Assembly: GCA_048885525.1 (NCBI GenBank)
Contig: JBHLLP010000056.1
Location: forward strand, 1 to 18,240
From: Candidatus Hermodarchaeota archaeon
GTDB lineage: Archaea; Asgardarchaeota; Lokiarchaeia; Sigyniarchaeales; SOKP01
DNA length: 18,240 nt
Direction: 5' to 3'
Positions within the stretch are counted from its first letter, which is position 1; each line of letters opens with the position of its first letter. This document shows positions 13,602-16,482 of this stretch, piece after piece. Position numbers and translations under genes: made by a program. Under the pieces are notes generated by a model. That model was not told the origin of the DNA and did no database searches. It saw only the letters and a list, made by a program, of their open reading frames with translations.

Positions 13602-14039
13602 ATGAAGAAAGCAGGTTATAGATTTCTAGAACATACTGCCGATGTCTCGGTTGAAGCTCAAGGCAGAAACTTGGAAGAAGCTTTTGAGCAAACTGCTTAT
13701 AGTTTAATGGAAACAATAACTCCTAGTTTAAGAATACTATCTTCTGAAATTGAAAGAACCATTACAATTGAAGCAGAAGATAAAGAAGCATTATTATTTG
13801 ATTTTTTAACTGAATTTCTTTATCTATTTGATGTAGAGGAACTAATTTTTAATAAGATTGATATCCAACCTATTAAAAAAGAACAAGAAAAATATCATTT
13901 AGTAGCATATGTTAAAGGAACTAAATTTAATAAAAACAAACATGAACCAGGCACAGAAGTTAAAGCCATAACTTATTCATTTATGAAAATCGAAGAAAAT
14001 GCCAAAGGAGTTATAATAAATATTGTATTTGATATTTAA
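13602..14039 (+). CDS. archease (RtcB activation cofactor)
   Basis: YRFLEHTADV, LLFDFL.E.LY, EVKAITY and C-terminal VFDI motifs. Confidence 0.96.
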   Translation: MKKAGYRFLEHTADVSVEAQGRNLEEAFEQTAYSLMETITPSLRILSSEIERTITIEAEDKEALLFDFLTEFLYLFDVEELIFNKIDIQPIKKEQEKYHLVAYVKGTKFNKNKHEPGTEVKAITYSFMKIEENAKGVIINIVFDI

Positions 14040-14068
14040 ATAAAAATTAATATTTAAATCTGAAGAAT

Positions 14069-15541
14069 TCATCCCTTTACTACTCCTATTGGGATTAATC
14101 TAACTACTTTTTCAACGATACCGAGATTGTGACTAACCTGAACAACTTGATCTATATCTTTATAAGCACCAGGAGCTTCTTCAGCAATTACTTTCATCGA
14201 AGCAGCACGTATCATAATACCTTGTTTTCTTAAACTTTCTTTAACTCGTTCCCCCCAGTATTCCTTAGTAGCTTTTGATCTAGACATTACTCTTCCAGAG
14301 CCATGAGCAGTCGAACCAAATGATAGATCCATTGCATTTTCTTTTCCAACACATAGATAAGATGCAGAACCCATTGTTCCAGGGATTAATGCAGGTTGTC
14401 CTATAGATTTATAATCAGATGGTAGATCAGGATGTTCTGGTGGAAAAGCTCTCGTTGCTCCTTTTCTATGGACATTTAATTTCATCTTTTTACCATCAAT
14501 TTCATGTTCTTCTATTTTTAAAATATTGTGGCAGACCCCATAAATTAGATGTAAATCTAAAGTGTCAATATCTTTTTTAAAGATATTTTGAAAGGATTCT
14601 CTTAACCAATGTGTAATTAATTGACGGTTTGTAAATCCAAAATTAGCTGCACATGCCATTTGTTTTAAGTAGTCTTGTGCTTCTGGTTTATCCGCTGGAA
14701 CACTTGCTAATTCTCTATCAGGTACTCTAATATTATATTTTTTCATTGCTTGTTCAATATTACGTAAAGAGTCTGTGCAAACCTGATGTCCAAGAGCCCT
14801 ACTCCCTGTATGAACCATTACAGTAATTTGGTTTTTTTCATGTATTCCTAAAGTTTTAGCGATATTTTTATTATAAATTTCATCAACTTTTTGAATTTCA
14901 AGAAAATGATTTCCACTCCCTAAGGAACCAAGTTGTTTTATTGCACGCTGTTTTGCTCTTTGGGAAACAAAAGTAGCATCAGCATTCTTTAAACAACCAT
15001 TCTCTTCCAAGTGTTTAAGGTCTTCTTCAATAGCATAACCATTATCTAATGCCCAATTTACTCCATTATTCAATACTTTATCCAAATCTGAATAATTTAT
15101 ATTTAGTTTCCCTTTTGATCCTAACCCAGAAGGGATATTATTAAAGATAGTATTTAAAAGATCCTGGAGTACACCTTTAACATCTTTAAGAAATAAGTTT
15201 GTACGTAATAATCTTACACCACAGTTAATATCGTAACCAACTCCTCCAGGAGAAATCATCCCATTCTCTGCATCAGTTCCTGCAACGCCCCCAATACAAA
15301 ATCCATACCCTTGATGAGCATCCGAAAGAGCAATAGCATGTTTCTGTATTCCAGGTAAACAAGCAACATTACAAATTTGATCAAGTGTACGATCAAGCCT
15401 TATTTTCTCTAAAATATAATCATTCGCATAAATTTTAACAGGAACCCTCATCTGAAATTTCTCAATGTTACCTTTAATCCTTGCCATTAAAGTTTTTGGT
15501 GAAATCTCGAAAATATTATCATCAATTTTATTGACATTCAT
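14069..15541 (-). CDS. rtcB: RNA-splicing ligase RtcB
   Basis: DAHQGYGF.IG, GVGYDINCG, GSGNHFLE, HTGSR, HNI, HRKGATR, PGTMG, STAHGSGR, EEAPGAYKD and C-terminal VVKG. No intein. Confidence 0.98.
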   Translation of the reverse strand: MNVNKIDDNIFEISPKTLMARIKGNIEKFQMRVPVKIYANDYILEKIRLDRTLDQICNVACLPGIQKHAIALSDAHQGYGFCIGGVAGTDAENGMISPGGVGYDINCGVRLLRTNLFLKDVKGVLQDLLNTIFNNIPSGLGSKGKLNINYSDLDKVLNNGVNWALDNGYAIEEDLKHLEENGCLKNADATFVSQRAKQRAIKQLGSLGSGNHFLEIQKVDEIYNKNIAKTLGIHEKNQITVMVHTGSRALGHQVCTDSLRNIEQAMKKYNIRVPDRELASVPADKPEAQDYLKQMACAANFGFTNRQLITHWLRESFQNIFKKDIDTLDLHLIYGVCHNILKIEEHEIDGKKMKLNVHRKGATRAFPPEHPDLPSDYKSIGQPALIPGTMGSASYLCVGKENAMDLSFGSTAHGSGRVMSRSKATKEYWGERVKESLRKQGIMIRAASMKVIAEEAPGAYKDIDQVVQVSHNLGIVEKVVRLIPIGVVKG

Positions 15542-15680
15542 CTTAAATTTATTAATAAAACAATTTTCAAAAATATTTTCATTTAATCCAATAAAATGTC
15601 AAGAAATTCAAAAAACAAGAAAATCTTTTAAATAATATGAGGTGTTATTAAAAAATAGATTTATGAAATAGATTTATGTT

Positions 15681-16467
15681 TTACTTTATTTCTATAAAAG
15701 AAAGTAACCCTAAATTATCTAAACTCCCAATAATACGTTGGATCTCTCCCTCTGGCCGCCCACTCTCCTCAGCAATCTCAGCAATCGTATGAAAACCATC
15801 CGCTAAATGAGCTATCTTATACTCCTTCTTATCCAGAAATCCCTGGGTAATTATTTGTTTAGGAAGCCTTTTAGAAGTCCATTCGGGCTTTACATCCTTC
15901 ACTTCACGTAAATCCTCCTCTGATATAACTAATCCCTTCTTCGTAATCTGCTTCTGCGATTTTAGAAAATCCTTCTTAAATATCTTCAGTATAGGAAGCT
16001 TTAACTCTATCTCAGCAAGCCTACCATTCTCTAAAATCTCATCAATAATTTGATCAAAATCCCGAAAGATACGAACATCTCCAGACCACGCCTCAAGTTG
16101 ATCCCCATAATCAACCACAAATTTATCAATAATATCCGTTAACGCTTTATGCGTAATCTTCGCATCATCGTTCTTATCCGCCGCCGCTGTTATCAAAACT
16201 CCCTCCTTAAAGACTAAAAGCAAGTAAAATACCTGCATGTCTTTACTATTAGATAGAAACTATCTAAAACCTATAACCTTGAGTTCGCCACTTCCCTTGG
16301 AAAACTCAACACTAAAGTCCTTAAGGGCTGTTAAAAAGCCACTCACTAAATCTTGATTAAATTCGATGCTACCATACTTACGATGTATTAAACAAATACC
16401 CGTTCACAAATGGCAGAGAAACTCTGCACATTTTATGTTGGTGGATTAAATAAACATTATGGAGCAC
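15681..16467 (-). CDS. longin-domain + winged-helix protein (241 aa), spliced: exons 16467-16434, 16402-16271, 16240-15681
   Basis: GTG start at 16467 with GGAGGT 9 nt upstream. The joined exons (34+132+560 = 726 nt) translate as MLHNVYLIHQHTGICLIHRKYGSIEFNQDLVSGFLTALKDFSVEFSKGSGELKVIDMQVFYLLLVFKEG..., a complete Asgard-type longin pattern. A C-terminal wHTH follows (LADGFHTIAEIAEESG...LDNLGLL). The track ORF 15681-16238 covers only exon 3. Confidence 0.8.
16241..16270 (-). other. putative BHB mRNA intron 2 (30 nt, contains in-frame TAG)
   Basis: GTTTTAGATAGTTTCTATCTAATAGTAAAG. Central helix TTAT/GTAA, bulges AG|G and AG|A, inner hairpin TTAGATAG-TTT-CTATCTAA. Removal gives ATA GAC ATG (I-D-M). 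Confidence 0.82.
16403..16433 (-). other. putative BHB mRNA intron 1 (31 nt, frameshifting)
   Basis: AAATGTGCAGAGTTTCTCTGCCATTTGTGAA. Outer CC/GG, central AACA/TGTG (3 pairs plus A.G), bulges TA|A and AA|C, inner AATG/CATT plus GCAGAG-TTT-CTCTGC. Removal gives CAT ACG GGT (H-T-G) in frame. Confidence 0.75.
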
Positions 16468-16476
16468 CTTTCATTT

Positions 16477-16482
16477 ACCTCC
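16477..16482 (-). promoter_or_regulatory. Shine-Dalgarno site of the spliced longin gene
   Basis: AAGGAGGTAA on the minus strand, with GGAGGT ending 9 nt before GTG 16467. Confidence 0.7.

What the first reader, a model, noticed from the sequence alone, without database searches (positions are those of the whole stretch)
15681..16467. Protein-coding gene interrupted by two tRNA-type (BHB) introns: candidate multi-intron mRNA splicing in an Asgard archaeon
Seen in sequence: upstream of the called 185-aa ORF the longin reading frame continues but is broken twice by hairpin inserts of 31 nt (16403-16433) and 30 nt (16241-16270). Each folds as a 4-bp helix flanked by two 3-nt bulges. Cutting after the second bulge nucleotide, as for tRNA introns, joins the exons in frame into a 241-aa protein with a strong RBS and GTG start. 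Unspliced, translation frameshifts and stops after 29 aa. With only intron 1 removed it hits a TAG inside intron 2. Established: archaeal EndA cuts BHB motifs and RtcB/archease ligate the exons. The well-known archaeal mRNA example is the single cbf5 intron of Crenarchaeota. Inference: this is a spliced mRNA with two introns in a eukaryote-like gene, which standard gene callers truncate.
Basis: partly seen in the sequence, partly recalled or inferred. Interest (0 to 1): 0.97.

Follow-up and report, generated by a model that had tools for sequence, protein, structure and literature searches.

The report
Two tRNA-type introns in Asgard mRNA
A conserved Asgard-archaeal gene beside the RNA-ligase gene rtcB is broken by two ~30-base hairpins shaped like the substrate of the tRNA-splicing enzyme, so its mRNA almost certainly has to be spliced, which the papers I could search report inside an archaeal coding sequence for only one gene (cbf5).

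Summary
On the minus strand, 31 nt (16433-16403) and 30 nt (16270-16241) interrupt a 241-codon gene. Removing exactly these bases gives a protein that aligns without gaps to uninterrupted 241-aa homologues and matches the closest one over the first 81 residues.

Both inserts sit in bulge-helix-bulge (BHB) geometry, with cuts after the second bulge base. Intron 2 is canonical. Intron 1 has 3 of 4 central pairs.

Homologous inserts occupy the same two sites, plus a third 6 nt away, in roughly one orthologue in six from independent assemblies. All carry in-frame stops, and their lengths vary from 28 to 35 nt. The helices show compensatory changes, including exon-intron pairs, and the exons remain under strong purifying selection.

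The genome has two EndA paralogues. RtcB and archease lie next to the gene.

Best reading (about 0.85): these are mRNA introns removed by EndA and RtcB. No RNA data could be obtained. The N-terminal domain has a longin fold.

I verified five more such introns in other genes of this genome. This scan had already reported the phenomenon in this and other Asgard genomes. The searched papers document only cbf5 and one Haloferax 5'UTR.

The parts
16477..16482 (-). Shine-Dalgarno-like GGAGGT, 9 nt upstream of the GTG start
   Evidence: sequence
16434..16467 (-). Exon 1 (34 nt: GTG start, 11 codons plus the first base of the Thr12 codon)
16403..16433 (-). Intron 1 (31 nt, frame-shifting). BHB parts: outer CC 16441-16440 with GG 16401-16400; central helix 16439-16436 with 16408-16405 (3 pairs plus A.G); bulges 16435-16433 and 16404-16402; inner 10-bp helix 16432-16422 with 16418-16409 and bulged U 16428; loop 16421-16419
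16271..16402 (-). Exon 2 (132 nt; codons 12-56 in part)
16241..16270 (-). Intron 2 (30 nt, in-frame TAG). Canonical BHB parts: central helix 16276-16273 with 16246-16243; bulges 16272-16270 and 16242-16240; inner 10-bp helix 16269-16260 with 16256-16247; loop 16259-16257
15681..16240 (-). Exon 3 (560 nt with stop). Gene callers report only its 185-aa ORF 15681..16238. It encodes the end of the longin-like domain, a linker and a C-terminal winged-helix region
14069..15541 (-). rtcB (RNA 3'-phosphate ligase, 490 aa, uninterrupted here), 139 nt downstream on the same strand
   Evidence: Pfam PF01139, E 3e-171; downstream on the same strand in 75 of 88 loci
13602..14039 (+). Archease gene (RtcB cofactor), tail to tail with rtcB
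   Evidence: PF01951, E 4e-42; ORF

Best explanation
The gene at 16467..15681 (minus strand) encodes a 241-aa Lokiarchaeia-family protein with an N-terminal longin-fold domain and a C-terminal winged helix. Its primary transcript carries two archaeal BHB introns of 31 and 30 nt. Each intron, together with the last 6 bases of the upstream exon, folds into a 4-bp central helix flanked by two 3-nt bulges on opposite strands, extended by a 10-bp intron hairpin. The heteromeric splicing endonuclease EndA (one catalytic and one non-catalytic paralogue in this genome) cuts after the second base of each bulge. RtcB with archease, both encoded next door, joins the exons. Only the doubly spliced mRNA can be translated into the conserved protein, because each intron carries a stop or a frameshift. 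Shown here: the exact collinearity, the BHB geometry, its conservation and covariation, selection on the exons, and the presence of the enzymes. Inferred: cleavage and ligation of this RNA in the cell.
For: (1) Removing exactly 31 and 30 nt gives a 241-aa product that aligns without gaps to 94 homologues and is identical to P0005 over the first 81 residues. (2) With junctions fixed by homology, both inserts fall in the canonical register, cut after bulge base 2. Such fits occur at about 2e-5 and 1.4e-5 of genome positions. (3) Homologous inserts lie at the same sites in other assemblies: site 1a in 7 loci and site 2 in 14 of 88 loci. Among genomes of the same family, 11 of 66 have stops inside the match. 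(4) Every copy read in frame has an in-frame stop, and lengths vary (28, 30, 31, 35 nt), which splicing tolerates but translation does not. (5) Covariation at site 1a: 85% of cells paired, 9 of 16 pairs with changes on both sides, 0 of 500 shuffles as high, slid controls about 44%. This includes exon-intron pairs of the central helix (A-U/G-C/G-U and C-G/U-A), where a synonymous or His/Tyr exon change is matched in the intron. At site 2: 91% paired, 4 pairs with double changes, including an exon-exon pair. (6) Exons 1-2 of the 16 intron-bearing genes have pN/pS of about 0.08 with near-saturated synonymous sites. (7) Intron 2 is more conserved than third codon positions (0.80 against 0.49). (8) The enzymes are present. 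One EndA paralogue is closest to crenarchaeal EndA chains (3p1z_B, 3ajv_B, 2cv8_A). The second lacks the aligned His. RtcB and archease are adjacent. (9) The same architecture interrupts universally conserved motifs in five other genes of this genome, and rtcB itself in three relatives, each time with one sliding-equivalent cut in the canonical BHB register.
Against: There is no RNA-level evidence. In this window, intron 1's central helix has only 3 standard pairs, and the outer exon-exon helices are weak (2 bp and 1-2 bp), so these are relaxed rather than strict hBHBh' motifs. The site-1b intron of L086 fits only with an internal mismatch. The heterotetramer assignment of EndA rests on sequence alone. 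Most orthologues (about 5 in 6) lack the introns, so the introns are dispensable.
Confidence: 0.85

Rival explanations
1. The gene is dead or dying. Hairpin insertions disrupted it, and at most the 185-aa ORF from ATG 16238 is made, so exons 1-2 are relics.
For: Gene callers report only the 185-aa ORF here and in 15 database proteins. Most orthologues lack the inserts.
Against: Exons 1-2 are under strong purifying selection among the 16 intron-bearing genes (pN/pS about 0.08) and are identical in protein sequence to intact homologues. The inserts are conserved at orthologous sites with compensatory changes. The genome has no second close copy of the gene; the next best hit is 30% identical. 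The 185-aa ORF would begin in the middle of the longin fold, at strand 4.
Confidence: 0.03
2. The inserts are removed from the RNA, but not by EndA and RtcB. Another nuclease/ligase pair or an unknown activity recognises the hairpins.
For: The outer helices are weak and intron 1 has an A.G in the central helix. No cleavage assay exists.
Against: The junctions coincide with the EndA rule (second bulge base, 4-bp spacing) at three sites of this gene and in six other genes. No other known archaeal system excises about 30 nt precisely. Both EndA subunits, RtcB and archease are present.
Confidence: 0.07
3. The ribosome bypasses the inserts (programmed hop or frameshift), as in phage T4 gene 60.
For: Each insert holds a stable hairpin and a stop codon near its start.
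Against: A hop needs matching take-off and landing codons. Here the codon before the gap (CAT; ATA) differs from the codon before the resumption (TGA; AAA), and the junction codons ACG and GAC are split 1|2. This follows directly from the sequence. A 1-nt length difference in the hairpin (30 against 31 nt) would not matter for splicing, and it is accompanied by an unchanged product.
Confidence: 0.01
4. The inserts are an assembly or sequencing artefact, or a DNA-level polymorphism, and the cell's real gene is uninterrupted.
For: The window comes from a draft genome of 87 contigs. Raw reads could not be examined.
Against: Homologous inserts occur at the same sites in MAGs and metagenome contigs from many independent studies and assemblers. 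Their sequences diverge in step with the host gene and with compensatory changes. Both inserts are unique in this genome rather than repeats.
Confidence: 0.02

Closest known systems
cbf5 pre-mRNA intron of Crenarchaeota (Watanabe 2002; Yokobori 2009, PMC2738675)
   Same: A short BHB intron lies inside a protein-coding frame and is removed by the tRNA-splicing endonuclease of a host with hetero-oligomeric EndA. Its distribution is patchy, with lineage-specific loss, and gene callers mis-predict the gene.
   Different: The phylum (Asgard/Lokiarchaeia) and the gene are different. There are two introns in one gene, and a third site in relatives. At least 9 and 7 presence/absence changes are needed on the gene tree. 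It is one of several interrupted genes in the same genome. The cbf5 intron was shown to be spliced experimentally, and this one was not.
Multiple and non-canonical tRNA introns of Asgard archaea (PMC11291895; bioRxiv 10.64898/2026.10.13.758758)
   Same: The lineage is the same, as are the BHB motif with part of it built from exon sequence, the inferred enzymes (two EndA paralogues) and the repeated gains and losses.
   Different: Those papers treat tRNA genes only, and I found no statement in them on coding sequences. Here the exon partner of the motif is constrained by a protein code.
BHB element in the 5'UTR of Haloferax volcanii HVO_1309 mRNA (PMC7714728)
   Same: An archaeal mRNA is cut by EndA at a BHB.
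   Different: That element lies in an untranslated leader, not within the reading frame. The paper states that cbf5 was the only other mRNA case reported.
HAC1/XBP1 unconventional mRNA splicing in eukaryotes (for example PMC11747266)
   Same: A small intron in the mRNA of a DNA-binding-type protein is removed without a spliceosome, and the exons are joined by RtcB. Translation of the full protein depends on splicing.
   Different: The nuclease there is IRE1 acting on twin stem-loops, not EndA on a BHB, and the splicing is stress-regulated. No regulation is shown here.

Membership tests
Archaeal BHB introns (EndA substrates) | [quoted passage not shown] | tested here: met
   Intron 2: UUAU/GUAA with bulges AGG and AGA. 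The central helix is 100% paired in 12 distinct sequences.
Archaeal BHB introns (EndA substrates) | The same motif for intron 1 | tested here: inconclusive
   The bulges are 3 nt and correctly spaced, but the outermost central pair is A.G in 6 of 7 copies (4 of 4 pairs only in L047). A 2-bp CC/GG helix follows. This is a relaxed BHB.
Archaeal BHB introns (EndA substrates) | Cutting after the second base of each bulge gives the mature junction | tested here: met
   The junctions were fixed independently by gap-free alignment to uninterrupted homologues, and they coincide with that rule at both sites and at site 1b in L071.
Archaeal BHB introns (EndA substrates) | Flanking helices h (outer) and h' (inner) | tested here: met
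   h' is 10 bp in both introns. h is weak (2 bp, and 1-2 bp). This is acceptable for broad-specificity EndA types according to PMC5829648 (abstract).
Archaeal BHB introns (EndA substrates) | Structure maintained in evolution | tested here: met
   Pairs with changes on both sides: 9 of 16 at site 1a and 4 of 16 at site 2. Slid controls pair in 31-49% of cells, against 85-91% for the structure.
Archaeal BHB introns (EndA substrates) | Host encodes EndA, RtcB and archease | tested here: met
   two EndA paralogues; RtcB; archease.
Archaeal BHB introns (EndA substrates) | Cleavage and ligation of this RNA observed | not testable with these tools
No identical spliced product was found among the database proteins.
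cbf5-type pre-mRNA intron | Host EndA is hetero-oligomeric, (alpha-beta)2 | tested here: inconclusive
   The two paralogues are 33% identical. One keeps Tyr, His and Lys at the aligned catalytic positions, and the other lacks the His. Assembly state was not tested.
cbf5-type pre-mRNA intron | Located in the cbf5 gene of Crenarchaeota | tested here: not met
   The gene is different (longin plus winged helix) and so is the phylum.
Longin domain | The beta-beta-alpha-beta-beta-beta-alpha sandwich fold | tested here: met
   The model of residues 1-135 of homologue P0005 has pLDDT 91.9 and that topology. The top Foldseek hits are AP sigma subunits, TRAPP Bet5/TRAPPC1, Mon1-Ccz1 and Sec22b, with TM 0.6-0.72.
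Longin domain | Match to Pfam Longin above its cut-off | tested here: not met
   There is no Pfam hit for the N-terminal domain. Only a sub-threshold Longin hit was seen, in a distant relative, along with weak profile hits to longin proteins in the PDB.
Pseudogene | Relaxed selection (dN/dS near 1) on the disrupted part | tested here: not met
   pN/pS is about 0.08 in exons 1-2.
Repeated mobile mini-element (MITE-like) | Multiple similar copies in the genome | tested here: not met
   Each insert is unique in the genome, even when 4-6 substitutions are allowed.

The most novel reading that the evidence does not exclude
The intron-bearing gene is a splicing-gated regulator of the RNA-ligation module. 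It is a winged-helix protein kept directly upstream of rtcB and archease (75 of 88 loci), and in some lineages its mRNA can be translated only after EndA cleavage and RtcB ligation. Its level would then report the cell's splicing and ligation capacity. That would make it an archaeal counterpart of the XBP1/HAC1 logic, in a lineage where rtcB mRNA itself sometimes carries a BHB intron.
Probability: 0.07. Interest if true: 0.9.

Novelty: new variant of a known kind. Interest (0 to 1): 0.8.

Why it matters
If the mRNA is spliced, Lokiarchaeia routinely use the tRNA-splicing enzymes on messenger RNAs. In this genome alone that covers at least six genes, including aIF2-gamma, RNase HII and a small GTPase.

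That has three consequences. It would extend protein-enzyme mRNA splicing from a single crenarchaeal curiosity to the closest archaeal relatives of eukaryotes. It would give a natural system for studying intron gain and precise loss in coding sequence. It would also show that standard gene callers truncate or split such genes: here 185 aa are called instead of 241, and 15 similarly truncated database entries exist.

It also raises a bootstrapping question, because rtcB itself is interrupted in some relatives.

Tried and rejected

(2) Homology-free genome-wide scans for 'BHB plus ORF-bridging' candidates gave as many hits with a mirror-repeat decoy pairing rule as with real pairing. Adjacent genes and open off-frames in this 29% GC genome swamp the signal, and one decoy count was also inflated by N spacers. 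I therefore give no genome-wide number, only cases verified through conserved motifs.

(3) The full-length AlphaFold model built from 28 near-identical sequences was unusable (pLDDT 41.6). It was replaced by a domain model built from 82 diverse relatives.

(4) An intron-specific pattern search of metagenome contigs returned 76 stretches, of which only 3 carried the gene.

(5) I looked for an intron-less, otherwise identical (cDNA-like) product among the database proteins and found none.

(6) The truncated database proteins of 171-212 aa are not extra intron sites. Their loci are uninterrupted and start at unusual codons.

(7) ARAGORN finds no tRNA in the window, so the hairpins are not tRNA fragments.

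(8) No complex prediction was run, because the report makes no binding claim.

Full report
**Observation.** A GTG start, preceded by GGAGGT, opens a frame that runs 34 nt. It is then interrupted by 31 nt (16433-16403), resumes for 132 nt, is interrupted by 30 nt (16270-16241), and continues for 560 nt to the stop. Unspliced, the frame ends after 29 codons. With only the first insert removed, it meets a TAG inside the second. Joining the three pieces gives 241 codons.

**Are the junctions right?** A search with the 185-aa ORF found 411 relatives. The modal length is 241 aa, exactly the predicted spliced length. In an alignment of the joined product with 94 relatives of 226 aa or more, no gap occurs at either junction. 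The product is identical to P0005 over the first 81 residues, start codon apart, and includes ..HQHTGICL.. and ..LKVIDMQ... The excision points are therefore fixed by homology, independently of any RNA structure, up to a 1-nt (site 1) or 2-nt (site 2) sliding ambiguity.

**Structure.**
- In the canonical archaeal motif, the last six exon bases supply the 5' strand of a 4-bp helix plus two bulge bases.
- The intron supplies the third bulge base, an inner hairpin, the 3' strand of the 4-bp helix and two bases of the second bulge.
- Intron 2 fits exactly: UUAU/GUAA, bulges AG|G and AG|A, and an inner helix of 10 pairs with one U.U.
- Intron 1 fits with (A)ACA/UGU(G), that is three pairs and an A.G, bulges UA|A and AA|C, a 10-pair inner helix with one bulged U, and a CC/GG outer helix.
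- Fits this good occur at about 2e-5 and 1.4e-5 of all positions of this genome for the given lengths. Two such fits at two registers set in advance are not chance.
- Plain minimum-free-energy folding recovers the hairpins but not the bulges. This is usual for BHB motifs and carries little weight either way.

**Comparative evidence.**
- Eighty loci from species-representative genomes, three metagenome contigs and four looked-up contigs carry the gene.
- Inserts occur at only three positions. Site 1a lies after CDS nt 34 (7 loci including the window). Site 1b lies after nt 40 (L071 with 28 nt; L086, a Lokiarchaeum GC14_75 contig, with 35 nt). Site 2 lies after nt 166 (14 loci).
- Twelve of the 80 unselected loci are interrupted. 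In an even sample of the phylum, 11 of 66 genomes of the window's family, and 4 of 21 congeners, have stops inside the match.
- Every copy read in frame carries an in-frame stop.
- Site 1a introns are 30 nt in five lineages and 31 nt in two. The extra base is a bulge in the inner helix, which is harmless for splicing but fatal for translation.
- At site 1a, 9 of 16 pairs change on both sides. These include two pairs of the central exon-intron helix, where CAA/CAG and CAT/TAT exon variants are matched by the intron. No shuffle out of 500 reaches the observed values, and slid partners pair in only about 44% of cells against 85%.
- Site 2 varies less but shows four double changes, including an exon-exon pair (G-C to A-U), with 91% pairing.
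- Intron 2 is more conserved than third codon positions of the same genes (0.80 against 0.49). The inserts are single-copy in the genome.
- Among the 16 intron-bearing genes, exons 1-2 have pN/pS of about 0.08 with synonymous sites close to saturation.
- The genome has no second close copy of the gene.

Together these results exclude an artefact, a recent pseudogene and a repeated mobile element.

**History.** On a gene tree of 87 sequences, presence of intron 2 needs at least 9 changes and presence of a site-1 intron at least 7. Several intron-bearing genes have intron-less sisters at short distance, for example L045/L040, L046/L162, L027/L004, and L086/L035 for site 1b. Sixteen full-length genes from 17 congeners first sampled are uninterrupted. 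Gain cannot be told from loss without a root. Precise presence/absence at identical sites with homologous intron sequences fits either repeated exact loss or transfer with the allele.

**Machinery.**
- The genome holds two EndA paralogues of 198 and 205 aa, each with both Pfam domains and 33% identical to each other. One keeps the aligned Tyr/His/Lys positions and is closest to crenarchaeal EndA chains. The other lacks the His.
- This suits an (alpha-beta)2 enzyme, the broad-specificity type reported as common in Asgard genomes (bioRxiv 10.64898/2026.10.13.758758), but assembly state was not tested.
- RtcB lies 139 nt downstream of the gene on the same strand, and archease lies tail to tail with rtcB. 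RtcB follows the gene in 75 of 88 loci.

**The protein.**
- Pfam sees only a weak winged-helix (TrmB-like) signal at the C-terminus.
- A profile search found 604 relatives of the N-terminal ~130 residues in many architectures, for example fused to Ras-family GTPase or TIR domains.
- A model built from 82 diverse relatives is confident (pLDDT 91.9) and has beta-beta-alpha-beta-beta-beta-alpha topology.
- Its best structural matches are longin domains of AP sigma subunits, TRAPP, Mon1-Ccz1 and Sec22b, followed by roadblock proteins. 'Longin-like' is therefore supported by fold, not by family membership.
- Close orthologues are confined almost entirely to one family of the phylum.

**Context in the genome.**
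- Prompted by earlier notes of this scan, I checked five other cases directly in the genome sequence: RNase HII (GIDEAGR|GSVLGP, 30 nt), a JAMM protease (HSHPGF|KVMMSHID, 31 nt), AMP phosphorylase (DKHS-T-GGVPG, 30 nt), aIF2-gamma (GHVDHG-K-TTL, 30 nt) and a small GTPase (LLLWD-I-GGQ, 32 nt).
- In the four whose fold I tested, one of the sliding-equivalent cuts falls in the canonical BHB register. For the GTPase I checked only that removing the insert restores the motif.
- That these motifs are continuous in the families concerned is established knowledge, not something tested here.
- In three relatives, rtcB itself carries a 29-nt, perfectly canonical BHB insert inside GGVGY|DINCG.

**Comparison with what is known.** The papers I could search report a BHB intron within an archaeal coding sequence only for cbf5 of Crenarchaeota, plus a BHB element in a Haloferax 5'UTR. 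A 2020 paper says so explicitly, and a 2025 structural paper still cites only the cbf5 work. Papers on Asgard introns treat tRNA genes. Subscription journals are not covered, so prior description cannot be excluded. The mechanism is of a known kind. What is new is the lineage, the multiplicity (two introns per gene, several genes per genome) and the turnover. This scan had already flagged and followed up the same phenomenon in other Asgard genomes. This report adds a well-sampled orthologue series with covariation and selection tests.

**Verdict.** I put confidence that these are EndA/RtcB-spliced mRNA introns at about 0.85. The missing piece is RNA evidence.

Noticed in passing
L036:~4261, L073:6527-6557, L076:4133-4163 (rtcB downstream of the gene in relatives): In three relatives, rtcB itself is interrupted by a 29-nt frame-shifting insert inside the conserved GGVGY|DINCG motif. 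The BHB is perfect: UUGG/CCAA, bulges AUA and AAA, and a 9-bp inner helix. The ligase mRNA would need the ligase in order to be made. The window's own rtcB is uninterrupted.
   Followed up: partly
L071 and L086 (Lokiarchaeum GC14_75 contig LAZR01002112), about 40 nt into the CDS: A third intron site lies 6 nt downstream of site 1a, in the Ile14 codon. It is 28 nt in L071 (canonical BHB) and 35 nt in L086 (relaxed BHB, flanked by a GGAA repeat). L035, almost identical to L086 in the exons, lacks it, so this is a very recent gain or exact loss.
   Followed up: partly
Own genome: C4 ~36.15 kb (RNase HII), C7 ~62.56 kb (JAMM protease), C6 ~109.04 kb (AMP phosphorylase), C19 minus strand (aIF2-gamma), C39 ~27.86 kb (small GTPase): Five further 30-32-nt inserts split universally conserved motifs. 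Exact removal restores each motif. BHB register was checked and met for the first four.
   Followed up: partly
window 13602-16467: Archease, rtcB and the intron-bearing longin/winged-helix gene form one cluster. The gene-rtcB order is kept in 75 of 88 loci, which hints at a functional link between this protein and RNA ligation.
   Followed up: partly
Whole genome (G000): ARAGORN finds only 30 tRNA genes in a 99%-complete genome, 17 of them with anticodon-loop inserts. The missing ones may carry non-canonical or multiple introns.
   Followed up: no
L159-L162 and database proteins of 171-212 aa: Many orthologues start at unusual codons (ATT, CTT or TTG, read as I or L before HN..), so gene callers pick internal starts. 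These truncated entries are annotation errors, not extra intron sites.
   Followed up: yes
A2 (site 2 introns of 14 loci): Intron 2 is far more conserved than synonymous positions of its host gene (0.80 against 0.49 pairwise identity). The window's copy is 93% identical to that of L086 although the exons are saturated at third positions. This points to sequence-level constraint or spread of the intron between lineages.
   Followed up: partly
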